Shown here in pieces: positions 13,021-62,527 of a stretch of DNA of 64,000 bases. Each line of letters opens with the position of its first letter. Position 1 is the first letter of the stretch. This stretch comes from the human T2T-CHM13v2.0 reference genome, Homo sapiens. The DNA is taken from contig CP068257.2 in the NCBI GenBank assembly GCA_009914755.4, positions 8,640,001 to 8,704,000 of the forward strand, written 5' to 3'. Under the pieces are notes generated by a model, which ran no database searches, was not told the DNA's origin, and worked only from the letters and a program-made list of their open reading frames with translations. Position numbers and translations under genes: made by a program.

Positions 13021-16510
<3,490 letters not shown>

Positions 16511-18508: not shown

Positions 18509-19125
18509 AGAGGGAAGGAAAGAAGGAAGGAAGGAGGAAAGGAAGGAAGGAAGAAAGGAAGGAGAGAGGGAAGGAAGGAGAGAGGAAAGAAAGGAGGGAA
18601 GGAAGGAGAGAGGAAAGAAAGGAGGGAAGGAAAGAGAGAGGGAAGGAAGGAAGGAAGTAGGGAGGGAGGGAGGGAGGGATGGAAGGAAGGAAGGAGAGAG
18701 GGAAGGAAGGAATGAAGGAAGGAGAGAGGGAAGGAGAGCAGGAAGGAAGGAAGGAAAGAAGGAAGGAGAGAGAGAAGGAAGGAAGGAGGGAGGGAGGGAA
18801 GGAAGGAAGGAGAGAGGGAAGGAAGGAAGGAGGGAAAGAAGAAAGGAAGAAAGGAAAGAGGGAAGGAAGGAAGGCAGAAAGGAAGGAGGGAAGGAAGAAA
18901 GGAAGGAAGGAAAGGGAAGGAAAGAGGGAAGGAAGGAGGGAAGGAAGGAGGGAAGGAAGAAAAGAAGGAAGGAAAGAGGGAAGGAAGGAGGGAAGGAAGG
19001 AGGGAAGGAAGAAAGGAAGGAAGGAAAGAGGGAAGGAAGGAAGGAAAGATGGAAGGAAGGAGGGAAGGAAGGAGGGAAGGAAGGAAGGAAACGAAGGAAA
19101 CAAGGAAGGAAAGAAGGGAAGGAAC
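18509..19125. repeat. GGAA/GGGA-rich microsatellite, ~620 bp
   Basis: Near-continuous ggaaggaaggaaag / ggaaggaggg units. The track ORFs of 233-241 aa on both strands are repeat translations. Confidence 0.95.
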
Positions 19126-26912: not shown

Positions 26913-27460
26913 GCAGCTTCCCATGGTGATGGTGACTATGAGGGCCTGTCACATATGATGTAGGACCCCAGTGCTTCCCTGTAATATGTGCAGGATTCCC
27001 GTGATGACGGTGACTATGAGAGCCTGTCACATACGATGTAGGACAGTGCTTCCCTGTAAACATGCGCAAGATTCCCATGGTGATGGTGACTATAATCCTG
27101 TCACCTATGATGTAGGCAGTGCTTCCTCTGTAACATGCACAAGATTCCCGTGATAATGGTGACTATGACAGCCTATCACATATGATGTAGAGCCCCAGTG
27201 CTTCCTCTGTAACATGCACTAGATTCCTGTGATGATGGTGACTATGAGATCCTGTCACATACGATGTAGGACAGTGCTTCCCTCTAACATGCACAAGATT
27301 CCCGTGATGATGGTGACTATGAGAGCCCATCACATATGATGTAGGACAGTGCTTCCCTGTAACATGTACAAGATCCCGTGATGATGGTGAGTATGAGAGC
27401 CTGTCACATATGATGTAGGACAGTGCTTCCTCTGTAACATTCACAAGATTCACCCGTGGA
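26913..27460. repeat. minisatellite, ~75-bp unit x about 7
   Basis: Unit approximately cacaagattcccgtgatgatggtgactatgagagcctgtcacatatgatgtaggacagtgcttccctgtaacatg. Minus-strand His-rich ORFs here are repeat artefacts. Confidence 0.9.
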
Positions 27461-31169: not shown

Positions 31170-32712
31170 GTATGTATTCTGTGAGGTGTGTGCAGGTGTA
31201 TGCATGATATGTGTGTGTGGTCTGTGTGTGTAGTAGGTACATGGTGTATGTATATGAGTGTGTGTGGTGTGTATTGTGGCTGTTATGTGTGCATACTGTG
31301 TGTAGCATGTGGGTGGTGCATGGCATGTATATGTGCTGTGTTTGTGGTGTATGTGTGTGTGGTGTGTATGTGTACTATGTGAGATGTGGTGTGCATGTGA
31401 TATGTGTGTGTGGTGTATGTGATGTGTGTGTTTTCTATGTGTATGGTGTTGTGTGTGTGCAGTGTGTGTAGTGATTGATGTGTGCTTGATGTGTTTGTAG
31501 AATGTGTGTGGTGTGGGGTGTGTATGTGAGGTATGTGTTTGCTCTATGTGTGTGGTGTTGTAGGTACGTGTGCAGTGTGTGGGGAGTATGTGTGGGTTGT
31601 GTGGTGTGTGTGGGGAGTATGTAGGGGTGTGTGATGTCTATGTGGCGTGTGGTGCTGTATGTGTGTGATGTATGTGTAGTAGATTCATGTGTGTGGTGTG
31701 GGGGTGTGTGCACATGTGCACATACTGTGTGGTGTATGTGGTGTCTGTGGGGGTGTGTGTGTGCACATGGTGTGTGTACAGTGTGTGGGGTGTGTGCATG
31801 TATACATGGTGTGGGTGCAGTGTGGTGTCTCTGTGTGTGTGGTGTCTGGGGTGTGTGTGCATGTGCACATGGTGTGAGTGTGTGCTGTGTGCATGTATAC
31901 ATGGTGAGCTGTGTGCAGTGTGTGTGGTGTCAGTGTGTGGGTGGTGTCTGGGGTGTGTGCATGTGTACACAGTGTGTGTGCAGTGTGTGGTGTGTGTGTA
32001 CTTGTGAACATGGTGTGGTGTGTGCAGTGTGTGTGAGGTGTGTGTGCAGTGTGTGTGGTGTCTTGGTTGTGTGTACAGTGTGGTGTCTGTGGGGTGTGTG
32101 TGCACGTGCATGGTGTGTGGTGTGTGTGCGTGTGTACATGGTGTGTATGCATTGTGTGTGGCTTCTGCATGTGAGGTGTTGTGCATGTGCACATGACGTG
32201 GTGTGTGCAGTGTGTGGTGTGTATGTGGGTGTGTGTGTGTGCACATGGCATGTGTGTAGTGTGGTGTCTGGTGTGTGGTGTGTGTGGGGTGCATGTGTGC
32301 ACATGGTGTTTGTGTGCAGTGTGTGTGGTGCCTGGGGTGCATGCGTTCACATGGCATGGTGTGTGCAGTGTGTGTGGTGTCTGTGGGGTGTGTGCATGTG
32401 CACATGGTGTGTGTGCAGTGTGTGGGGTCTGTATGGGGTGTATGCATGTGCAAATGGTGTGTGTGCAGTGGATGTGGTGTGTGTGGGGTGTGTGCAGTGT
32501 GTGTTGTGGGGTGTGTGTGCGTGTGCACATGGTGTGTGTGCTGTTTGGTATCTGTGGGGGGTGTGTGTGCACATGGTGTGTGTGCAGTGTATGGTGTCTG
32601 TGTGTGGGGTGTGTGTGCATGTGCACATGGTGTGTGCTGTTTGTGTGGTGTCTGTGTGTGAGGTGTGTGTGCGGGTGCACATGGTGTCGTGTGTGCAGTG
32701 TGTGTGTTATGA
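31170..32712. repeat. GT-rich degenerate minisatellite, ~1.5 kb; (TG)n-derived units of ~40-55 bp
   Basis: Recurring units such as ggggtgtgtgtgcatgtgcacatggtgtgtgtgcagtgtgtggtgtctgtgg. The 361-aa plus-strand and 469/331-aa minus-strand ORFs are Cys/Val- or His/Thr-rich repeat translations. Confidence 0.95.
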
Positions 32713-35956: not shown

Positions 35957-36505
35957 CTCCCTATTTGTTCAAGTTTCATCATGAGTTTACAGCAATTTCA
36001 TCTCACCTTAAGGCCCTAATTCTAATTCTAGTTGTCTTGCGATTTCTACCACGTCTGCAGGGACTTCCTCCACTGACATCCTGAGCCCTCAAAGTCATCC
36101 AAGAGGGCTGGAATCAATTTCTTCCAAACTCCTGTTAATGTTAATATTTCAACCTCCTCCCATCAATCACAAATGTCCTTAATGGCCTTTAAGGATTGCT
36201 AGTAAGGACATTTGTGATTCACAGGAGGAGGTTCAAATATCATGAAAGGATTAATGGTGAATCCTTTCCAAAAGGTTTTCAATTCAGTTTATCCAGATTC
36301 ATCAAAGAAATCACTATCTATGACAGCAATACCTTTACAAAATACATTTATTAATTAATAAAAACACTTGAAAGTCAAAACCACTCCTTGATCCACAGGC
36401 TGAAGGTAAATATTGTATTAGCAGCCATGAAAATAACATTAATTTTCAAGTACATCTCCATCTAAGCTTCTGGGTAGCTAGGTGAATTGTCAATAAGCAG
36501 CAATC

Positions 36506-36889
<384 letters not shown>

Positions 36890-37259
36890 TGAGCAGTAGG
36901 TCTCAATAGTGGGATTAAAATATTCAGTAAACCATGCTCTTAACAGATGCACTGTCACCCAGACAGTGATGTTCCATTTCTAGAGCACAGAAAGAATAGA
37001 TTTTGCATAATTCTTAAGGGTCCTGAGGTTTTCAGAGTGGTTAATGAGCACTGGCTGTAACTTAAAGTCACCAGCTGCAGTGGTCCTCAAAGAGAGTCAG
37101 CCCATCCTTTGAAGTTTTGAAGCCAAGCGTTGACTTCTCTCTAGCTATGAAAATTCTACATCTTCACTAAGCTTAATCATTTCTATCTCTGGACTTAAAG
37201 TGAGAGACTTGCAAGTCTTCCTTTCTTTTGCGTTCTTTGAGGCCACTGTGGTTACTAAT

Positions 37260-38330
37260 TAGCACCCCCGGTGGGTGTCACCCTCCTCCCTCCTGTATTG
37301 AGTTCGCCCGGGAATTGCGCTTCCCACACCCCAAATGCCCTGCACGCCTGGGGCTCTCCCACAGGGGGCTTTCGTGGGCCAGGGAGCAAGGGCCATCCCC
37401 CTGCTCCAGCCCAGCCAGGCTGCGCAGGCAGAAGGACTCTCCCAACCTGCCCGGGCATGTGGGGCTTTGTGTTCGCTGCCCTGGCTTCTCCGGAACTGGG
37501 GCTCTCCCATCTTCAGACTCCCTGCTGGCCTCTGCACCCCAACAAATGACAGGAAGACCAGAACCCGCAACGCGACGGCCTGCTGGGCGCATGCTCAGTG
37601 GGACAGCTTTGGCCCCCTCAATCTGAGTCACAGGGGCAAGGTGTGCTTGCGCCACCCACATCCCACCGGAGTCCGTGATGGGGCTGGAGCCCCAGGGCGG
37701 CGTGGGAACCTGAAGATGGGGCACCTCCACCTCAGGAGCTCGCGACCCCGGAGACCTCAGCGTCAAGCACAGATGCCAGCCAACCGGGCACCTCCCAACC
37801 GCTCCAGGAGCCCGGGCGCTTGTCTGCACTCACCTCCAGCCTGTTAGATGAGCTCCTGTCAACCCCAGTTTCAGCAAAAGGCACAACCTTTCCTAGATCC
37901 GGCACCATTGGGGGAGCTGAAGGACGTGGAAGAGCACGCTTTGCTGGAACCACTCCTCAGCCAGGAAGAACACAGGGCTCTTCTGGAGGAGCAGGTTGGG
38001 GCGGGATGGGGGCAGGGTGGCGGCCTCTCTTTCGCGGCGAACCTCAGGCTTGGTATGGAGAGGCCTGTCTTCCCTTCCAGCTGACCTGCCTAGGATCCCT
38101 GTGTTCCAGGTCCACCGAGAGACTCCACACAGAGGAGGGCTGTCAAGAATGGCAAGAAAAATTCCTGAGCATCCTGGGGATCCCAGGGCCGGTACAGGTA
38201 CCGGGAGGTGGGCTGTCTACTGCGCATGCACGGGTTTCCAGGCAGCAGCCTGGGTTTTCTAACTAGCGGAGGCGGAGCTCTCATCCCTTTTGCCCCCGCG
38301 TTCTTCAGTCGGGTTGGCGGAGACCTAAGT
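37260..38330. promoter_or_regulatory. CpG-island-like segment (high GC, frequent CpG) beginning where Tigger1 ends
   Basis: Dense CG dinucleotides, for example cccgggaattgcgcttcc, gcaacgcgacggcctgctgggcgcatgctc, gggcggcgtggg, ctcgcgaccccggag. This contrasts sharply with the AT-rich flanks. No TATA box is evident. Confidence 0.5.
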
Positions 38331-38519
38331 CCGTGAAACACTGGGCCGGGGCAGAAGCCAGGCCACTTCTTTCTGCGGCTCGACTCCTCTGCCTCTTCGC
38401 TCTCCATCACTTGCCAACCCGTGTCCCGCCAGCCTCCTTGCCAGCACCATGGAGGGCCTTGCAACTAAATGTAGACCCGAGACCCCGTGCAAACAGGGGT
38501 GCTGCCCTTTCCAGGCGAG

Positions 38520-38760
38520 AGGGAAGGCAGGCAGAGATGAGGACAGGAACGAAGACAGAGTGAGATGGAAGGATGGAGCTAGGAAAGGATGGGTGGAAGG
38601 AGGGACCCCGGAAGGGAGAGAAAGAAGGAGGGAGAAATGGAGGGAAAAAACGGGGGAGGGAGGGAAGAACAGAGGGAAGGATGGACCTAGGGACAAAAGG
38701 AGCAAGAAACAGAGAACGGAAGGCAGAGAGAAAAATGGTCTTCTGCCTCCAGAACCAACA
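38520..38760. repeat. GA-rich low-complexity block (GGAA/GGGA-like)
   Basis: ggaaggatggagctaggaaaggatgggtggaaggagggaccccggaagggagagaaagaaggagggagaaatggagggaaaaaacgggggagggagggaagaacagagggaagg. Confidence 0.8.
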
Positions 38761-39440
38761 GGACCCAGCACTCCGGGAAAATGTTGGGTGCCCAGAGCGG
38801 GCTAAGTGCTGAGCCCACAGCCCCATTGGCCGGCGGGGCACTCCGCGGCCCTCTGGATCGCCAGCCTGGGTTACTTCATCCCGGAGCAATTCAGACCAAT
38901 TCCGTTTCCAAAGGAATGAGCGAATTTCCCAGAAAGAAATGAGCCGAGACTCAGGTGGCTGTCTGTTTTTCATCCACATGGTTCACAGATGACATATCTC
39001 CACGTTGAGCCCTGCAACAGAGCGCGAGGCGGATAGTAGCATCCACACAGGAGTCACACTCAGGCCAACTGAAGCGTGATTCTGGATTCCACTTTTCTTT
39101 GCCCTCTGCAAAGGTGCCTGTTGCTCAAGTTTCTGCCCCCCGAAAGCGTGCCCATGTTGAGTGTTTGTTTCCCAAGCTCTGTGGGGCCGCAGAAAGTTCC
39201 AGGAATGCGTGGAAGACCAGCATCATGTCGGTGCTCTCCTTTCCAGTTTTCAAACAGGCTATATTGGAGACTCCCCATTTTGCAGGAAACAGGAATCCAT
39301 CGTCAGGCCGTGATGCACGGGATGTTTCTTTTCTCTGTGGTTTCGCTCTCGTTGTCTACGTGAAAATGAACGAGATCCACACACCTGCGGGTGTGAGACT
39401 ATCACGGCAACTGTCACACCCACTCGCTGGCAATAGAGTT

Positions 39441-40463
39441 GGCAGCCTGATCCCGGGACAAAGGTACTGATGGACATCCAGACACACCCCACCACAATCA
39501 CTGGCAAACTCACTCCCAAACACAGACACACACGGGCATATGCGCGGGATCACAAGCACACACAGAGACACAACAAGACCCAGACAGCTTGAAGGAGAGC
39601 AAGGGACAGAGGGATGGCAAGATAAAAACGGAAGGAGAGAGAGAAACAGCCATCCAGAGACAGACAGAGAGGAACAGGGGAGATTGAGAGAGAGAGAGAG
39701 AGTGAGAGCAAGGTGGAGAGGGAAGTAGAGAAAGGGAAAGGGTGAGGGAGCTAGAGAGGGAGAGCAACAGAGCCTATCTGGTAGACAGGGGCCCCTTTGG
39801 CCAGGGTAAGGTGGAGGGTGCTTGGGCCGGGCTGGAACAGAGGGACAGAGCCGCCCACGCGGGACAATCAACGGAGCCCTGAGACGTGATTTTACTTAGA
39901 TTGGTTGGTTGTTTTGGGGGTGCTTTTCGTAGCGTCATTCCTTTGTTGGCTTCTCCCTGTCCTCTTGGTCTGTGGGCCCTGAAAGTTGTAGAGTGCGCCC
40001 CTCACTGTGGCAGGAGCAGTGGCGCTGAGCGTACCCACGGGTCGCGGCTTGGGTCTCTCTCGTTTTCCAGGTGGTGTGGCCGTAGACAATGGCAGTGGCG
40101 CCTGGCTGGCTCAAGAGCCCGGTCCAGCTACGCCCGCCTGATTCCAGGCGTCACCACCAACCGCGGGCCGCGAGGCTGGGATCAGGCACCCCGGAGCCGC
40201 TTGCCCGTGGCCGGGCTGCTCTCCCCCTCTAGGCCCAAACACCACCAGTCGCCGCGCTGCGCTTTCCGCCAACCTCCCAGAGCGTCCCGCTGTCGCCGGC
40301 GGCCAGACCACGCGCGAGACCGCCGAGGCGCCAGAGGCCTCCATCCCCTGCCAGGGCTCTGGACTCTCCAGGCAGCCACTCTCTCGCTGACACTCCAGGC
40401 CTTACCCCCGCTCTCGAGCCCCAGAGCTTCCAACACCTGGGGCCCGCTCAGAACGGGGTGTGC
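39441..40463 (+). repeat. GC-rich duplicon copy A (~1.0 kb) of a local tandem duplication
   Basis: Begins ggcagcctgatcccgggacaaagg..ctgatggacatccagacacaccccacca..cagcttgaaggagagc..GA-rich..ggtggagggtgcttgggccgggctggaacag..gggacaatcaacggagccctgagacgtg..ttggttggttgttttgggggtgc.. and ends ..gcccgctcagaacggggtgtgct. Collinear with copy B. Confidence 0.75.
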
Positions 40464-40746
40464 TCTGAGGCATCAGGGCCCAGGGCCCAGGGTCCTAGGG
40501 TCCCCTCCAGTCCTCCGCCTGGCTGCGGAAAAATTATTTTGGATCCCTCGCCGCCCCTCCTGCGAGGCCCCCTCTTGCCCCGCACACCCAGAGCCGCCAG
40601 GGCTGCCCAGGGGCGAACAGCCGGCCCAGCCCCACGGGCCCTTTTTCTCACAACGCTCACACCATCTTCGCTTGTTCCGACGAGGACCCGCCGTGGCCAA
40701 CGGGGCAGGAAGGCTCTGCTTTGCCCAGCGCCGGCACTAGAGCCCT

Positions 40747-42925
40747 GGCAGCCTCATCCCAGGAAAGAGGGGCTGACGGACACCCAGATACACCCCAGCA
40801 ACACCACGAGCAAACCCACCCTGACACACACACGGACACACACGGGTGCACGTGCGCAGACACACACACACACGGACACACACACACCGCACCCGGGCAC
40901 ACACACACGGACACACAAAGACACAGACACAGATAGCTTGAAGGGAGACCACACCTCATATTGTCTTATGCCCAATTAATGCCTCCAAAGAAAGAAGAAG
41001 TAAAATCTAAAAGGCAGAAATGAAATCCACAGGCAGACAGCCCTGCGCCACACCCTGGGCCTGGTAGTTAAAGATCGACCCCTGACCTACTCGGTTATGT
41101 TATCTATAGATTACAGACATTGTATAGAAAAGCACTGTGAAAATCCCTGTTCTGTTTTGCTCCGATCTAATTACCGGTGCATGCAGCCCCCAGTCACGTA
41201 CCCTCTGCTTCCTCAATCCATCAGGACCCTCTCACGCAGACCCCTTTAGACTTGTAAGCTCTTAAGAGGGACAGGAATTGCTCACTCTGAGAGCTAGGTT
41301 TTTGGAGACACGAGTCTGCCGATGCTCCCAGCTGAATAAAGTCCTTCCTTCTACAACTCGGTGTCAGGGTTTTTTCTGCAGCTCCTCCTGCTACAGAAGG
41401 AGAGAAAGGGAGAGAGTGATGGAGAAATAGAACCAGAGGGAGAGAGAGAGACAGTGATAGAGAGAGAGACAGAGAAGGGGGGAGGAGAGACAGAGAGGGG
41501 AGAAGAGAGAGCGCCACAGTAGAGCGCGAGGTGGAGGGGGAAGTAGAGAAAGGGAGAGGGTGAGGGAGTGGTAGAGTGACAGCAACAGAGCCTTAGAGAG
41601 GGAGGCTCTGCTCAGGTAGACAGGGCACCTTTCAGCAGGCCGGAGTGGGGTGGAGGGTGCTTGAGCCGGGCTAGAACAGGGTGTCAGGGCCCCACACCCG
41701 GGAAAACCAACGGAGCCCTGAGACGTGTTTTTTTTTTTTTTCTTGAATTGGTTGGTTGCTTTGCGGGTGCGTTTCATATGGTCCTTCCTTTGTTTGCTTC
41801 TTTCTGTCTCCTTGGTGCGGTGGGCCCCGAGATTTGTTGAGTGTGCCCGTTTGTCTGGAGAGAGCCGTGGTGCCAAGCGTGTCTACGGGGCAAGGCCTGT
41901 GTCTCTCTCCTGTCCTCAGGACTGGAGTTCACACGAAGTCGGTGGCATTGGAAAACCGGGTGCACAGGGACGGATTTCCTCGTGGCTGGCGAAGACTGTG
42001 TCCTTCCCCTGGGGAAAGCAGACCACGGGTTCTGGAGCGGAGGTCTTGGCTGCGGTCTGTGGGACCCGCTGCCCCTACCCGCCCCTTCACCCGGCTTGGA
42101 CGGTTGCGGCGTCGCTGGATGAATGAATAGAATTGTCTGGGAGTCCGGGGAGCGTGAAGACACCTGGGAACTCGGGGAACCCGCGCCTGCGCCCTCGGGG
42201 TCGTCCAGTCCCGCCCGGGTTGGAGCCGGGCTCCTGGTGGGGCTGCCGCGAGTCCGAAAAGGTGGGATGCTGCTGCCTGGCGGTGCTGCAGTGGCGGATC
42301 TTCAGGAGGAGGTCCTGGGCTTCGGCTGGGGCGCGGGGGCTGTCAAGGGGGAGCAGAGGAGGGGGGCGGTTGGGAAGCACAGAGACAAAAGGGGAAAGAG
42401 GGAGGGAGCAGGAAGCCAAAACCTTATGGTATCCGATATTACCAGGCAGAATCCCATCCAAGTACTAACCAGGACCGACCCTGCTTAGCTTCAACAGATC
42501 AGAGGCGAGCGGGCGCGTTCAGGGTGGTGTGGCCTAGACGCCAGGCAGCGGCGTCTGGCTGTCCCAAGAGCCTGGCCCAGCCACGCCCGCACGACTCCAG
42601 GCGTCACCGCCACCCCGGGGCCGCGGGTCTCGGATCCGGGACCCCCAGAGCCGCTCGCCCGTGCCCCCGGGCAGCTGTCTCCCTCTACACCCGAGCACCG
42701 TCGGCTTCCCAGAGAGTCCCGCCGTCACCGGCGGCCAGGCCTGGCTCAGGACCAATGTGGCACCGCCCTGATGTTGCTGGGGGGCGCCGGAGGCCTCTGT
42801 CCCCTGCCCAGGCTTCCCGCTCTCGGGGCGGCCTCCCTTCCGCCCACGCTCCAGTCCTTCCGCGAGCTCCCGAGCTCCGAAGCTTCCACCACAGCTGCCG
42901 GCTCAGGACGGGTCGTGCTTATCCC
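40747..42925 (+). repeat. GC-rich duplicon copy B (~2.2 kb), equal to copy A plus two copy-specific insertions; truncated by the L1 at 42935
   Basis: Begins ggcagcctcatcccaggaaagagg..ctgacggacacccagatacaccccagca..cagatagcttgaagggagacc, and contains ggtggagggtgcttgagccgggctagaacag..ccaacggagccctgagacgtg..ttggttggttgctttgcgggtgc.. Ends ..gctcaggacgggtcgtgct. The extra segments at about 40955-41397 and 41921-42523 are absent from copy A. Confidence 0.75.
40955..41397 (+). mobile_element. possible solo-LTR-like insertion specific to duplicon copy B
   Basis: Ends with gctcccagctgaataaagtccttccttctacaactcggtgtcagggttttttctgcagctcctcctgctacag, an R/U5-like AATAAA followed by ctcggtgtc. No family assignment. 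Confidence 0.25.
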
Positions 42926-42934
42926 TTAACTTTT

Positions 42935-45900
42935 TAACTTTTTGTTATTTCTATTTATATTTTATTGTGCTATGTCTTGAAATGTTGTTGTGGTTATTAC
43001 TTTTGATTGGATATTATTTAGTATTCCTACTTTGAATAAGAGTAGTTTGCACACCACACAGCTATAGTGTTATAATATTCCGTTTTGTTTTGTGTCCAAT
43101 TAGCAGTGAAGATTTTTTTTTTACCTTTAGGTGATCATTTGTTGCTCGTTAATGTCCTTTTCTTCCTGATCGAAGTACTCCCTTTAGCATTCCTTTAGGA
43201 CAGGTATGGTATTCATAAAATACTTCAGCTTCTGTTTGTCTGAAAAAGTCAGTATTTCTTCTCTTTATTTGAAGAAAATTTTCACTGTATATTTTATTCT
43301 AAGGTAAAAGTTTTTTTTTCCTTTGATACTTTAAATATTTATTGCTTCTCTCTCCTGGCCAGTAGAGTTTCCACTGTAAAGTCTGCTGCCAGACGTGTTG
43401 GAGCTCCCCAGTAAGATATTTGTTCCTTTTCTCTTTCTTCCTTTATAACTTTTCTTTATCAGACTTTTGGAAGATCTATTGAATGCTTTGAAGTAGTCTT
43501 TTTTGGGTTAAATCTGCTTAATGTTCTATGACTTTTTTGTAGTTGGATATGGATATCTTTCTCTAGGTTTGGAAAATACTCTGTTATTATCCCTTTGAAT
43601 AAATTGTTCTACCCCTACATCTTTCTCTACATCTTCTTTAAAACAAATAACTCTTAGATCTGTCTTTGTGAGGCTATTTTCTAGATCCTGTCCGCATGAT
43701 TTGTTGTTTTTATTCTTTTTCTTTTGTCTCTTCTATGTATTTTCAAAGAGCCTGTCTTCAAGCTCACTATTTCTTCTGCTTGATCCATTCTGCTGTTACA
43801 TGGCTCTAATGCATTCTTCAGCATGCCAATTACATTTTTCAGCTCAGAATTTCTGCTTAGTTTGCTGTGACTATTTCAATCTCTTTGTTGAGTTTAACTG
43901 ATAAAATTTGGAATTTTTTTACTTTGTTATCTTAAATTTCTTTCAGTTTTTTTTTAAATAGAGCTATTTTGAATTCTCTGTCTGAAACATCACATATCTC
44001 TTTTTCTCCAGGATTTGTCCCCAGTGCCTTATTTAGTTCACTTGGTGAGGTCATGTTTTCCTGGATGGTGTTGATGCTAGTAGATGTTCTTCAGTGTCTG
44101 GGCATTAAAATCTTGGGCATGCAGCACCATATGAGAGGTTTAAAAAATAAAATTTAAAGAGAGAAAAGGTGAGTACTTATTGTAGTCTTCATTGTCTGGG
44201 CTTATTTGTAGCTGTCTTTCTTGGGAAGGTTTTTCACATATTTGAAAAGAGTTGGGTGTTGTGATCTAAGCCATATCTGCTTTATGGGGCACCTTATACC
44301 CAATAATACTGTAATTCTTCCAGACTCAGAGAAGTACCACCTTGACAGCCTTCAACAAGATCCAGGAGAATTTTCTGGATTACTAGCCAGAGACTCTTTT
44401 TCCCTACCCTTATTTTCTCTTAAAGATACAGAGTCTTTCTCTCTGTTCTAAGCCACCTAAAGCTGGGAGAAGAAAGACACAAGCACCCCTGGCCACCATC
44501 ACTATGACTGCCCTGGATCAGACCTGAAGCTAGCACAGCACGGGTCTTGCTCAAGTCCTGCTGCACGCACTTTCGGACGACTGCCTATGTTCATTCAAGG
44601 CCTTTGGTCTCTACAATTAGCAGGTGGCAAAGCCAGACAGTCCTGTGTTCTTTCCTTTAGGGCAGTGAGATCCCTCAGTCACTGGCTGGGTCCAGAAGTG
44701 CCATTCAGAAGTCAGGGCTTTGGCCACTTTTTAATAGGGTTTTTTGTTTTTCTCTTGTAAATTTAAGTCCCTTATATTGAATATTAGATCTTTGTCAGAT
44801 ACATAGTTTGTAAATATTTTTTTCTCATTCTGTAGGTTGTCTGTTCACCCTATTGATAATTTCTTTTGCTGAGCAGAAGCTTTTAAGTTTAATTAGATCC
44901 CACTTGCCAGTAGTTGCATTTGTTGTTTTTGGTGTCTTTATCATGAAATCCTTGCCTGTTTCTATGTCCAGGATGGTATTGCCTAGGCTGTCTTCCAGGG
45001 CTTTTATAGTTTTGGGTTTTACATTTAAGTATTTGGTCCATCTTGGGTTGATTTTTGCTTATGGTATAAGGAAGAAGTCCAACTTCAATCTTCTGCATAT
45101 GGCTAGCCAGTTATCCCAGCACCATTTATTGAATAGGGAATCTTTCCCCATTGCTTGTTTTTGCCAGCTTTGTCAAAGATTAGATAGTTGTAGGTATGTG
45201 GTCTTACTTCTAACCTCTCTATTCTATTCCACTGGTGTATGTGTCTGTTTTTGTACTAGTACCATGCTGTTTTGGTTACTATAGTGCTGTAGTATAGTTT
45301 GAAGTCGGGTAATGTGATGCCTCAAGCTTTGTTCTTTTTGCTTAGCTACTTAAGTTCTTTCTTGGTTCTATATGAATTTTTAAATAGCTTTTTTCTACTT
45401 CTGTGAAGCATGTCATTGGTAGTTTAATAGGAATAGCCTTGGGCAGTACAACCATTTAAGTGATACTAATTCTTTCTCTCCATTAACATGGAATGATTTT
45501 TCATTTATTTGTGTCTTCTCTGACTTCTTTGAACAGTGTTTTGTAATTTTCATTGTAGAGATTTTTCACCTCCCTGGTTAGCTGTATTCGTATGTACTTT
45601 ATTCTTTTCGTGGAAATTGTGAATAAAATTGCCTCTGTGATTTGGCTCTTAGTTTGGCTCTTCTTGGTGTATAGGAATGCTAGCAAATTTTGTACATTGA
45701 TTTTGTGTCCTGAAACTTTGTGGAAGTTGATTATCAGCTTAAGGAGTTTTTGGGTCACAACTATAGGGTTTAGATAGAGAATTATGTTGTCTGCAAACAG
45801 AGGTAGTTGGACTTCTCTTTCTATTTAAATACGCTTTATTTCTTTCTCTTGTCTGATTGCTCCAGAAAGGACTTCTAATACTAGGTTGAATAGGAGTGGT

Positions 45901-46985
45901 GAGAGAGGGCATACTTGTCTTGTGCGGGTTTCAAGGAGGATGCTTCCAGATTTTGCCCATTTAGTATAATGTTGTCTGTGAGTTTGTCATAGGTGGCCTT
46001 TATTATTTTGAGGTATGTTCCTTTGATACCTCATTTACTGAGAAGTTTTAAAATGAAGCTTTGTTGAATTTTACTGAAAGCCTTTTCTGCATCTGTTGAG
46101 ACAATCACGTGGTTCTTATCTTTAGTTTTATTTATGTTACGAATCACATTTTATTAATTTGCCCATGATGGAGCAACCTTCCATTCCAGGGAAGAAGCTT
46201 ACTTCACTATGGTGAATTAGCCTTTTGATGTGTTGCTAGATTCAGTTTGCAAGTATTTTGTTGTGGATTATTGAATGGATGTTCATCAAGGATACTGGCC
46301 TGAAGTTTTCTTTTTTTGTTGTGTCACTGTCAGTATTTGGTATCAGGATGATTCTGGCCTCATAGAACAAGTTGAGGAAGAGTCCCTCCTCCTCTATTTC
46401 TTGAAATAGTTTCAGTAGGACTGGTACTGACTCTTCTTTGTACATCTGTTAAAATTTGTTAATGTATCAGGTCCTGGGATTTTGGGGGGTTGGTAGGCTA
46501 TTATGGATTCAATTTTTGGAGCTCATAATTGGTCTGCTCAGAGACTAAATTTCTTCCTGGTTCAGTCTTGAGAGAGTATATGTGTCCAGGAATTTATTAA
46601 TCTCTTCTAGGGTTTCTAGTTTGTGTGTATAGAGGTGCTCATAGTAGTTGCTGATTGTTATTTTTATTTATCTGGAGTCAGTGGTAACATTCCCTTCATC
46701 ATTTCTAATTTTGTTTATTTGAATCTTCTCTCTTTTCTTCTTTATTAATCTAGCTAGTGCACTATCTTATTAATTTTTTCAAAAAACCTTGATTAAGTGA
46801 TTGTTTGAACAGTTTTTCATGTCTCAATTTCTTTCAATTCAGCTCTGATTTTAGTTATTTCTTGTCTTCTATAAGCTTTGTGGTTGAGTTCTTCTTGCTT
46901 CTCTAATTCTTTCAGTTATGATGTTAGGTTGTTAATTTGAGATATTTCTAATTTTTTGATATGAGCATTACTTCTTATGCCCTAC
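42935..46985 (-). mobile_element. old L1 (L1PB/L1MA-like), antisense, ~4 kb, 5'-truncated in the ORF2 N-terminal region
   Basis: Poly-T-like ttaactttttaactttttgttatttc at the low-coordinate end, then a long 3'UTR. Minus-strand ORF2 remnants lie at 44889-45098, 45501-45758 and 46242-46445 (..[44 protein letters not shown]..). Confidence 0.8.
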
Positions 46986-57790: not shown

Positions 57791-57904
57791 AAGAAATCAT
57801 CTGAAGGTACAGGACTCACTAGCAATAGCACAAGGAAAAACACAGAATATTATAATATGGCAATTATGGGGTGCAAAAATCTCAAATACAAAGAGTAAAC
57901 ATAT

Positions 57905-62527
<4,623 letters not shown>

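What the first reader, a model, noticed from the sequence alone, without database searches (positions are those of the whole stretch)
39441..42925. Tandem duplication of a ~1 kb CpG-dense unit with two copy-specific insertions
Copy A (39441-40463) and copy B (40747-42925) are collinear and clearly homologous. The shared structure is a ggcagcct..atccc..gga start, a CA/CpG-rich stretch, cagcttgaagg, a GA-rich block, ggtggagggtgcttg.gccgggct.gaacag, ccaacggagccctgagacgtg and ttggttggttg. Copy B has an extra ~440 bp (40955-41397, LTR-like) and an extra ~600 bp CpG-rich segment (41921-42523). The array ends where an old L1 poly-A begins at 42935. This local segmental duplication of non-repeat GC-rich DNA is not explained by any transposon family I recognise. 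It could be a duplicated promoter/CpG island, a lncRNA unit, or part of a macrosatellite-like array.
Basis: seen in the sequence. Interest (0 to 1): 0.6.

Follow-up and report, generated by a model that had tools for sequence, protein, structure and literature searches.

The report
Decayed two-unit 5S rDNA relic
The "duplicated CpG-rich unit" is a fossil fragment (about 1.7 repeat units) of the human 5S ribosomal RNA gene array, lying away from the working array with its gene copies dead, so it is an ordinary pseudogene relic and not a new kind of element.

Summary
The tandem duplication is real: three collinear blocks, E = 5e-85, 1e-42 and 1e-19. It is not anonymous DNA. On the minus strand the region 39425-42925 matches the canonical human 2.24-kb 5S rDNA repeat unit over gene, upstream region and nearly the whole spacer (E down to 1e-180).

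- Unit B holds a full-length but decayed 5S copy at 42419-42539 (Rfam 48 bits; canonical gene 115 bits).
- Unit A keeps only the first 21 nt of the gene.
- The "extra 600 bp" in B is therefore a roughly 600-bp deletion in A, flanked by CAGG microhomology.
- The "extra 440 bp" is a genuine solo-LTR insertion with a 6-bp target duplication.
- Both units lack the Alu found beside every 5S gene of the modern array.

The window is human: its ORFs recur exactly in host DNA of human metagenomes. The locus exists in several diverged human copies. One contig joins near-canonical 5S units to a flank paralogous to the window's left flank. An exact miR-4477b hairpin 3 kb away suggests chromosome 9.

Best reading: an inert 5S rDNA "orphon" carried on an old segmental duplication. 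Low interest, apart from preserving a pre-Alu state of the unit and a CpG-island-like composition.

The parts
42540..42925 (-). Upstream (5') region of unit B, -1 to about -386. It includes a copy of the 5S upstream promoter-proximal motif, GGCTCTTGGGAC, at 42561-42572 (canonical GGCTCTTGGGGC). It is cut off at its distal end by the L1.
   Evidence: Aligns to canonical unit positions 2047-2230 (66-80%) and to unit A 40070-40464 (69%, E 1e-42). Motif seen in the alignment. CpG o/e 0.79.
42419..42539 (-). 5S rRNA pseudogene of unit B: full length, about 20 differences from the canonical 121-nt gene. It has a 1-nt deletion in helix I, and in box C GGGAGACCGCC has become GGGATTCTGCC. The A-box and intermediate-element region is nearly intact, and a TTTT terminator is kept.
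   Evidence: Rfam RF00001 scores 48.2 bits (gathering 38) against 114.6 bits for canonical copies. Alignment. MFE -32.6 kcal/mol (z +0.85) with no helix I, against -50.5 (z -2.15) for the canonical gene.
41396..42418 (-). Proximal 3' spacer of unit B, including a GA-rich block (CT-rich on the gene strand). It begins at the empty Alu site: a single copy of the sequence that flanks the Alu as a 14-nt target duplication in the modern array.
   Evidence: 42421-41407 aligns to canonical 454-1476, which is the part directly after the canonical Alu (73%, E 7e-180). Empty-site comparison. (AG)n detected.
40946..41395 (+). Solo LTR inserted into the spacer of unit B (450 bp). It ends in CA, has AATAAA about 60 bp from its 3' end, and is flanked by the 6-bp target duplication GAAGGG (40940-40945) / GAAGGA (41396-41401). 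The family looks MER11/ERVK-like from memory only.
   Evidence: Unit A and the canonical unit both show the uninterrupted target GCTTGAAGGAGAGCAAGG. The LTR has lower GC (0.47) and CpG o/e (0.41) than its host. It is present in every paralog contig that reaches this position.
40088..40945 (-). Distal 3' spacer of unit B, with a (CA)n/(TG)n microsatellite at about 40800-40935. It runs on into the upstream region of unit A (-1 to -659), which carries the upstream motif copy GGCTCTTGAGCC at 40108-40119.
   Evidence: 40951-40385 aligns to canonical 1531-2124 (73%, E 6e-106) and 40212-40097 to canonical 2110-2230 (78%). (AC)n. CpG o/e 0.69 for 40088-40746.
40067..40087 (-). Remnant of the 5S gene of unit A: only +1 to +21 (GTCTACGGCCACACCACCTGG). 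The rest of the gene and about 480 bp of spacer are lost in a deletion of about 600 bp, equivalent to B 41921-42523. The deletion is bounded by the 4-nt repeat CAGG (B 41917-41920 and 42520-42523).
   Evidence: Alignment to canonical -80..+40. Breakpoint sequences printed. The canonical unit contains the segment that A lacks, which shows the event was a deletion.
39425..40066 (-). 3' spacer of unit A (GA-rich block, CA-rich stretch). This is the last recognisable 5S rDNA sequence before the left flank.
   Evidence: 40088-39426 aligns to canonical 958-1754 (62%, E 6e-63). It is homologous to unit B (E 5e-85 and 9e-19).
39317..39424 (.). Unassigned 108 bp between the last unit sequence and the shared flank.
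   Evidence: No significant similarity to the unit (score within the shuffle range). In contig L016 the same flank nucleotide (window 39316) is followed directly by unit sequence.
36800..39316 (.). GC-rich left flank (GC 0.56, CpG o/e 0.47). It is not derived from 5S rDNA but is paralogous to the sequence abutting near-canonical 5S units in contig L016.
   Evidence: L016 2539-5043 matches window 39316-36800 (85%, 2572 bp). No 5S rDNA homology by sensitive BLAST or nhmmer apart from an Alu.
42930..46949 (-). Old L1 element on the minus strand. Its 3' (A-rich, here T-rich) end abuts unit B and marks the right edge of the relic.
   Evidence: 44718-46949 matches, in inverted orientation, 13398-15689, which encodes RVT_1 on the plus strand. 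AT skew is -0.2 to -0.33. No unit sequence resumes beyond it.

Best explanation
The region is a relic of a 5S ribosomal DNA tandem array, an 'orphon'. It consists of about 1.7 head-to-tail 5S rDNA repeat units on the minus strand (39425-42925), sitting outside the working array.

Shown:
- Each unit has the order of the canonical human unit: GC-rich upstream region with the promoter-proximal motif, 5S gene, then a spacer with a CT-rich block and a (TG)n microsatellite.
- The start-to-start period is 2452 bp, or 2002 bp without the LTR. The canonical unit without its Alu is 1908 bp.
- The units lack the Alu that sits beside every 5S gene of the modern array.
- Decay events: unit A lost most of its gene and the proximal spacer in a deletion of about 600 bp between CAGG repeats. 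Unit B took a solo-LTR insertion. The surviving 5S copy accumulated about 20 changes that abolish the 5S fold and alter box C.
- The whole flank-A-B-L1 block exists in several diverged human copies. All of the copies reaching those positions carry the LTR and the decayed 5S copy, and those spanning the site align straight through unit A's deletion junction.

Inferred:
- Lacking the Alu, the units left the homogenising array before that Alu spread through it.
- The block arose by segmental duplication of an edge of the chromosome 1q42 5S array and was then re-duplicated, probably in the chromosome 9 duplicon that carries MIR4477A/B.
- It now does nothing as a 5S gene. It persists as neutral DNA with an unusually slow loss of CpG.
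For: - Rfam finds 5S rRNA at 42421-42538 on the minus strand, 48.2 bits against a gathering score of 38.
- Contigs carrying the exact canonical 5S gene give a 2239-bp unit. This unit matches the published human unit: a 2.2-kb repeat with an antisense Alu next to each gene (PMC5203791).
- The window's minus strand is collinear with that unit over gene, upstream region and spacer: 42421-41407 with canonical 454-1476, E 7e-180; 40951-40385 with 1531-2124, E 6e-106; 40088-39426 with 958-1754, E 6e-63.
- The Alu site is empty, unit A has a 21-nt gene stub, and the upstream motif is conserved in both units.
- Using the canonical unit as outgroup shows a deletion in A and an insertion in B.
- The 5S copy is dead: 48 against 115 bits, and its fold is lost.
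- The window is human: ORFs 38407-38979 and 42123-42488 recur exactly in contigs from human gut, bile and lung metagenomes.
- These and further family contigs are 94-99.7% identical to the window. They show block-wise divergence of 4-12% and many distinct versions.
- L016 joins units 97.5% identical to canonical to a flank 83-93% identical to window 36800-39316. The flank homology ends at the same nucleotide, 39316.
- The mature miR-4477b sequence occurs exactly at 36162 on the minus strand (sequence from PMC9137836). MIR4477A/B lie on chromosome 9 and carry 17 'SNPs' in the precursor, as expected for collapsed paralogs (PMC3818353).
Against: - The chromosomal position was not determined directly. 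The chromosome 9 assignment rests on one hairpin, which derives from a Tigger transposon and may itself have paralogs elsewhere.
- Three of the four contigs linking canonical genes to window-like sequence (L007, L021, L022) could be assembly chimeras. Only L016 is firm, and its unit/flank junction differs from the window's on the unit side.
- On the right side, L022 is closer to the window (about 2%) than other family members are (6-7%). So a simple history of one duplication from chromosome 1 followed by spread is not established.
- A and B differ from each other by K2P 0.23-0.31, far more than the window differs from its paralogs. The two units were therefore already old and unhomogenised when the block was duplicated. 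Why an array edge would carry such old units is not explained.
- CpG o/e of 0.57-0.79 is high for DNA presumed neutral and methylated.
Confidence: 0.85

Rival explanations
1. This is a de novo local tandem duplication of unique GC-rich DNA (a promoter, CpG island or lncRNA unit) that later took two insertions. On this view any 5S similarity is incidental, for example a retroposed 5S pseudogene that landed in copy B.
For: Only two copies exist in the window. The 5S match lies inside a segment present only in copy B. The sequence meets CpG-island composition criteria.
Against: Homology to canonical 5S rDNA units covers about 1.9 kb of non-genic spacer and the upstream region in both copies, not only the 121-nt gene. 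Copy A retains the first 21 nt of the gene at the homologous position, with the upstream motif. The 5S copy has no poly-A tail or target duplication. The canonical unit contains the 600-bp segment, so A lost it.
Confidence: 0.02
2. The locus is an ancestral or alternative 5S rDNA site, not a copy. On this view the two old units mark where a 5S array once stood, or from which the modern 1q42 array expanded, and the array-bearing locus is the derived paralog.
For: The block has sequence paralogous to an array-abutting flank on the left (L016) and possibly on the right (L022), with only two units in between. The units represent the pre-Alu state. A and B are much older than the duplications of the block.
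Against: From memory and not tested here: the mouse 5S cluster lies next to Rhou, as in human 1q42, which makes 1q42 the ancestral site. The window family is multi-copy and mosaic, which is typical of secondary duplications. Array edges commonly hold unhomogenised old units, so old units do not imply an ancestral site.
Confidence: 0.08
3. The relic is functional. It could be an unmethylated CpG island acting as a promoter or boundary, or a weak Pol III unit: the upstream motif, A box, intermediate element and T4 terminator survive in unit B, so it might make a 5S-like RNA or recruit TFIIIC.
For: CpG o/e is 0.69-0.79 in the two upstream regions against 0.13 in the neighbouring L1. After correcting for the ascertainment bias seen in transversions, the CpG-specific transition excess between paralogs is about 1.0-1.4x in the units and about 3x in the L1. 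The upstream motif differs from the canonical one by only 1-2 nt, and the A-box region is nearly intact.
Against: Box C, the core TFIIIA site, has three substitutions, and helix I cannot form. Unit A has no gene. The paralogs differ by up to 12% in these parts, with no sign of constraint. The CpG test uses non-independent, partly chimeric contigs.
Confidence: 0.05

Closest known systems
Human 5S rDNA repeat unit of the 1q42 array (about 2.2 kb; RNA5S1-17)
   Same: The order of parts and the sequence are homologous over the whole unit: GC-rich upstream region with the GGCTCTTGGGGC-type motif at about -22 to -34, the 5S gene, a pyrimidine-rich block and a (TG)n microsatellite. The arrangement is head-to-tail and the unit length is comparable.
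   Different: Only 62-84% identical. There is no Alu beside the gene (empty site). One gene copy is decayed and the other is deleted. An LTR has been inserted. Only about 1.7 units remain, they are not homogenised with each other (K2P 0.23-0.31), and they lie away from any canonical 5S gene within at least 20-39 kb.
Orphons: isolated fragments of tandem multigene families (histone, rRNA genes) dispersed away from the parent array (concept recalled from Childs et al. 1981)
   Same: It is a piece of a tandem gene array, spacer included. It was copied at the DNA level to another place and left to decay.
   Different: Here the fragment is embedded in a larger segmental duplication that itself became multi-copy. 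It appears to include sequence paralogous to an array-abutting flank.
Dispersed processed 5S rRNA pseudogenes (the several hundred RNA5SP loci of the human genome)
   Same: Contains a mutated 5S sequence that scores above the Rfam threshold.
   Different: Processed copies share only the transcribed 121 nt. Here about 1.9 kb of untranscribed spacer and the promoter-proximal upstream region are also homologous, in two tandem units.
Truncated 5S pseudogene within the Xenopus laevis oocyte 5S DNA repeat (the first described pseudogene; from memory)
   Same: A truncated 5S copy lies in tandem with a full-length one inside 5S rDNA.
   Different: In Xenopus the pseudogene is part of every unit of a functional array. 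Here truncation is a one-off microhomology deletion in a dead relic.

Membership tests
5S rDNA tandem repeat unit (human 2.2-kb type) | Contains a 5S rRNA gene homolog | tested here: met
   Rfam RF00001 at 42421-42538 (minus strand), 48.2 bits against a gathering score of 38. Unit A keeps +1..+21.
5S rDNA tandem repeat unit (human 2.2-kb type) | Non-transcribed spacer and upstream region homologous and collinear with the canonical unit | tested here: met
   Collinear alignments cover canonical positions 454-2230 with E from 1e-22 to 7e-180. The canonical unit was validated against PMC5203791.
5S rDNA tandem repeat unit (human 2.2-kb type) | Head-to-tail tandem arrangement with a period of about 2 kb | tested here: met
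   The 5S starts lie at 42539 and 40087, same strand. The period is 2452 bp, or 2002 bp without the LTR.
5S rDNA tandem repeat unit (human 2.2-kb type) | Antisense Alu directly 3' of the gene, as in every unit of the modern human array | tested here: not met
   Unit B has the empty site. The canonical unit has the Alu flanked by the 14-nt duplication TGCTGTAGGCTTTT. The window therefore holds an older form of the unit, not a member of the present array.
Functional 5S rRNA gene | Intact internal control region (A box, intermediate element, C box) and the 5S three-way-junction fold | tested here: not met
   Three substitutions in box C, a 1-nt deletion in helix I, no 5S fold (MFE -32.6, z +0.85), and an Rfam score of 48 against 115 bits. 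Actual transcription cannot be tested here.
Processed (retroposed) 5S pseudogene | Homology confined to the transcribed region, usually with an A-rich tail and target duplications | tested here: not met
   Homology extends about 390-660 bp upstream and about 1.6 kb downstream of the gene.
Macrosatellite / large tandem array | Many copies of a kb-sized unit at high mutual identity | tested here: not met
   Two copies only in 64 kb, 69-77% identical. TRF finds no larger array.
   Only the 450-bp insertion has LTR features (target duplication, terminal CA, AATAAA). The rest is 5S rDNA. There is no repeat-library tool here, so the LTR family name (MER11-like) is untested.
Segmental duplication (paralogous copies of at least 1 kb at 90% identity or more) | Other copies of the same multi-kb block in the same genome | tested here: met
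   Human-derived contigs cover 36.6-52.5 kb of the window at 94-99.7% identity. They have block-wise divergence and several mutually distinct versions. Copy number and locations could not be determined.
CpG island | Sequence criteria (over 200 bp, GC above 0.5, CpG o/e above 0.6) and lack of germline methylation | tested here: inconclusive
   The sequence criteria are met for 40088-40746 (o/e 0.69), 41921-42519 (0.72) and 42539-42934 (0.79). Methylation cannot be tested. The weak CpG-transition excess is only suggestive.

The most novel reading that the evidence does not exclude
The relic is not inert. Its two upstream regions would be germline-unmethylated CpG islands that keep the 5S promoter-proximal motif. 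Unit B would keep enough of the internal promoter (A box, intermediate element, T4 terminator) to recruit TFIIIC or Pol III. Each copy of this multi-copy duplicon would then carry a Pol III-type boundary element or produce a 5S-like non-coding RNA.
Probability: 0.06. Interest if true: 0.5.

Novelty: new member of a known kind. Interest (0 to 1): 0.2.

Why it matters
The main value is as a correction. A feature that looked like an unexplained duplicated CpG-rich unit is a recognisable fossil of the 5S rRNA gene array. The fossil preserves the human 5S rDNA unit as it was before the Alu now found beside every 5S gene spread through the array, and it includes the empty target site. That gives a fixed reference point for dating that insertion and for measuring how fast the array's spacer has turned over. 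The relic also shows that an edge of the 5S array was swept into a segmental duplication that later became multi-copy. This matters in practice: reads from these copies can be mis-assigned in 5S rDNA copy-number and methylation studies.

Tried and rejected
1. A genome-contig scan with the canonical 5S gene gave no hits, so it was no use.
2. I first took the mir-4477 Rfam hit as a locator. I then discounted it because the family is Tigger-derived. I partly reinstated it after finding the exact mature miR-4477b and the literature on its chromosome 9 position and excess 'SNPs'.
3. I first read the 85-94% identity of the junction contigs as meaning the window was a non-human primate ortholog. I rejected this when window ORFs turned up exactly in human-derived contigs.
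4. I tested whether the GC-rich left flank (36000-39430) is older 5S rDNA. It has no homology beyond an Alu and a low-complexity patch.
5. I tested whether 39317-39424 is the distal upstream part of a third unit. The result was not significant.
6. I tested whether the divergent blocks in family contigs are chimeras with the array-edge type. They are not.
7. I looked for names or accessions for window ORFs. The only name found was 'hypothetical protein'.
8. Pfam on ORFs of the right flank itself gave nothing. The L1 identity comes from homology to other L1 copies in the window.
9. I suspected the ORF next to the array in L026 was DUSP5P1. It is retroviral integrase.
10. The 1991 paper characterising the human 5S genes is not held in the library. 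Five literature searches found no description of this relic.
11. The LTR family could not be tested, because there is no repeat library.
Full report
**Observation.** The duplication is real. The repeat finder reports a series of collinear direct repeats between the two intervals. Gapped BLAST of 39000-43000 against the whole window gives exactly three collinear blocks:
- 39591-40061 with 41396-41909 (73%, E 5e-85)
- 40070-40464 with 42523-42919 (69%, E 1e-42)
- 39425-39572 with 40729-40882 (74%, E 9e-19)

There is no third copy anywhere in the 64 kb.

**Identity.** While reading the sequence I noticed that the reverse complement of about 42520-42540 looks like the 5' end of 5S rRNA. Rfam confirms a full-length 5S match on the minus strand at 42421-42538, scoring 48.2 bits against a gathering score of 38.

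To test whether more than the gene is 5S-related, I scanned public metagenome contigs with the exact canonical mammalian 5S sequence and obtained 30 contigs. Sixteen of them share a unit at 97.5-100% identity. One of these is labelled human gut metagenome. From them I built a 2239-bp canonical unit. Its structure matches the published human 1q42 array: a 2.2-kb unit with an antisense Alu beside each 5S gene (PMC5203791).

The window's minus strand is collinear with this unit over essentially its whole length:

| Window (minus strand) | Canonical unit | Identity / E | Part |
|---|---|---|---|
| 42919-42550 | 2047-2230 | 66-80% | upstream region |
| 42539-42418 | 1-122 | 84% | 5S gene |
| 42421-41407 | 454-1476 | 73%, E 7e-180 | 3' spacer |
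| 40951-40385 | 1531-2124 | 73%, E 6e-106 | 3' spacer |
| 40212-40097 | 2110-2230 | 78% | upstream region of unit A |
| 40088-39426 | 958-1754 | 62%, E 6e-63 | spacer of unit A |

So the "unit" is a 5S rDNA repeat unit, and the region holds about 1.7 of them head-to-tail. The 5S starts are at 42539 and 40087, giving a period of 2452 bp, or 2002 bp without the LTR.

**Anatomy and polarity of the differences.**
- *Empty Alu site.* In the canonical unit an Alu sits between two copies of TGCTGTAGGCTTTT, the 3' end of the gene plus its terminator. Unit B has one copy and no Alu, so it is an empty site.
- *Unit B gene.* The 5S copy has about 20 changes, including a 1-nt deletion in helix I and three substitutions in box C. 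It scores 48 bits against 115 for canonical copies, and it no longer folds as 5S: -32.6 kcal/mol (z +0.85) against -50.5 (z -2.15).
- *Unit A gene.* Only +1..+21 remains. Comparison with B and the canonical unit shows that A lost about 600 bp, equivalent to B 41921-42523, between two CAGG tetranucleotides.
- *LTR.* The first "insertion" is genuine. The element at 40946-41395 is flanked by GAAGGG/GAAGGA, and both A and the canonical unit show the intact target.
- *Upstream motif.* Both units keep a copy of the promoter-proximal motif: GGCTCTTGGGAC in B and GGCTCTTGAGCC in A, against GGCTCTTGGGGC in the canonical unit.
- *Right boundary.* The relic ends at the 3' end of a minus-strand L1.

**Where it comes from.** Two window ORFs recur exactly in contigs from human gut, bile and lung metagenomes, so the window is human. 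Those contigs, and others reached through their protein clusters, are 94-99.7% identical to the window.

Their mismatches fall in blocks. Stretches identical to the window alternate with stretches 4-12% diverged. The diverged blocks differ from one another and from the array-linked contigs. The 90%-identity protein clusters hold 16-72 distinct variants. Several diverged copies of the flank-A-B-L1 block therefore exist in human DNA. All of the copies reaching those positions carry the LTR and a decayed 5S copy, and the contigs that span unit A's deletion site align straight through its junction.

Contig L016 joins units 97.5% identical to canonical to a sequence 83-93% identical to window 36800-39316, and the flank homology ends at window 39316. 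This is the firmest sign that the window is paralogous to an edge of the real array. L007, L021 and L022 also join canonical genes to window-like spacer, LTR or L1 sequence, but they may be assembly chimeras. Another contig, L026, shows canonical units abutting an endogenous retrovirus. That fits the ERVK sequence reported at 1q42.13 (PMC3949351).

A palindromic hairpin at 36152-36232 matches mir-4477 on both strands and contains the exact mature miR-4477b (sequence from PMC9137836). MIR4477A/B lie on complementary strands at one chromosome 9 site and carry the most "SNPs" (17) of any human pre-miRNA (PMC3818353). That is what collapsed paralogs would produce. The window is therefore probably part of a chromosome 9 duplicon, but this is inference.

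**Age and state.** A and B differ by K2P 0.23-0.31, and each differs from the canonical unit by 0.35-0.67. The two units were already old and unhomogenised when the block was duplicated.

The relic remains CpG-rich: o/e is 0.57-0.63 overall and 0.69-0.79 in the two upstream regions, against 0.13 in the adjacent L1. Between paralogs, CpG transitions run 4-6x the non-CpG rate in the units and 13x in the L1. After allowing for the roughly 4x ascertainment inflation seen in transversions, the CpG-specific excess is about 1.0-1.4x in the units and about 3x in the L1. This hints at weak germline methylation. The data are noisy and not independent.

**Conclusion.** The finding is a dead, dispersed fragment of the 5S rDNA array, an orphon, carried on an old multi-copy segmental duplication. 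Its interpretation is only partly right: it is a tandem duplication and not a transposon, but it belongs to a well-known tandem gene family, and one of the two "insertions" is a deletion.

I found no paper describing this relic. The kind is well known, though, so interest is low. The residual points of interest are the preserved pre-Alu state of the unit and the slow CpG decay.

Noticed in passing
window 36152-36232: A perfect-palindrome hairpin matches Rfam mir-4477 on both strands (89 and 87 bits, gathering score 74). It contains the exact mature miR-4477b on the minus strand. On the plus strand the site I recall as miR-4477a has one mismatch, but I could not verify the miR-4477a sequence. 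The family is Tigger-derived according to PMC10136691.
   Followed up: partly
window 18513-19124: A 612-bp (GGAA)n microsatellite (152 copies, 77% matches). It causes an extreme purine skew and spurious ORFs on both strands.
   Followed up: partly
window 31732-32693: A G+T-rich minisatellite region with periods of about 50-102 bp (GC skew +0.5 to +0.63, AT skew -0.43 to -0.46). It produces long artefactual ORFs in several frames, up to 469 aa.
   Followed up: partly
window 26918-27451: A minisatellite of a 75-bp unit x 7 (also reads as 228 bp x 2.4), 86% matches.
   Followed up: no
window 36800-39316: A GC-rich left flank (GC 0.56, CpG o/e 0.47) of unknown nature, with short GGAAGG-type repeats at 38566-38701. 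It is not 5S rDNA-derived, has no Pfam hits on its ORFs, and is paralogous to the flank of near-canonical 5S units in L016.
   Followed up: partly
window 39317-39424: 108 bp between the shared flank and the first unit sequence could not be assigned to either.
   Followed up: yes
L026 2612-14001: Canonical 5S units (the last 5S gene plus its Alu) abut a truncated endogenous retrovirus on the minus strand (integrase, RNase H, RT, Gag p24). This is a different array junction from the one in L016. It fits the ERVK sequence reported at 1q42.13 near DUSP5P1.
   Followed up: partly
canonical unit (from L026), positions about 110-455: The Alu beside every human 5S gene is flanked by a 14-nt target duplication (TGCTGTAGGCTTTT) made of the 3' end of the gene and its T-run terminator. 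The Alu therefore integrated into the Pol III terminator, and each unit has a second, orphan copy of the gene's last 10 nt plus terminator after the Alu.
   Followed up: partly
L001, L023, L028 and about 10 other contigs: A second class of contigs carries the exact same 105-nt 5S sequence but has a period of about 1.7 kb and no spacer homology to the human unit. It is presumably the 5S rDNA of another mammalian host.
   Followed up: no
window 13398-15689 (+), 44718-46949 (-), 57800-60450 (-): Several old L1 copies with recognisable RVT_1 and endonuclease domains make up much of the AT-rich surroundings of the GC-rich island.
   Followed up: partly
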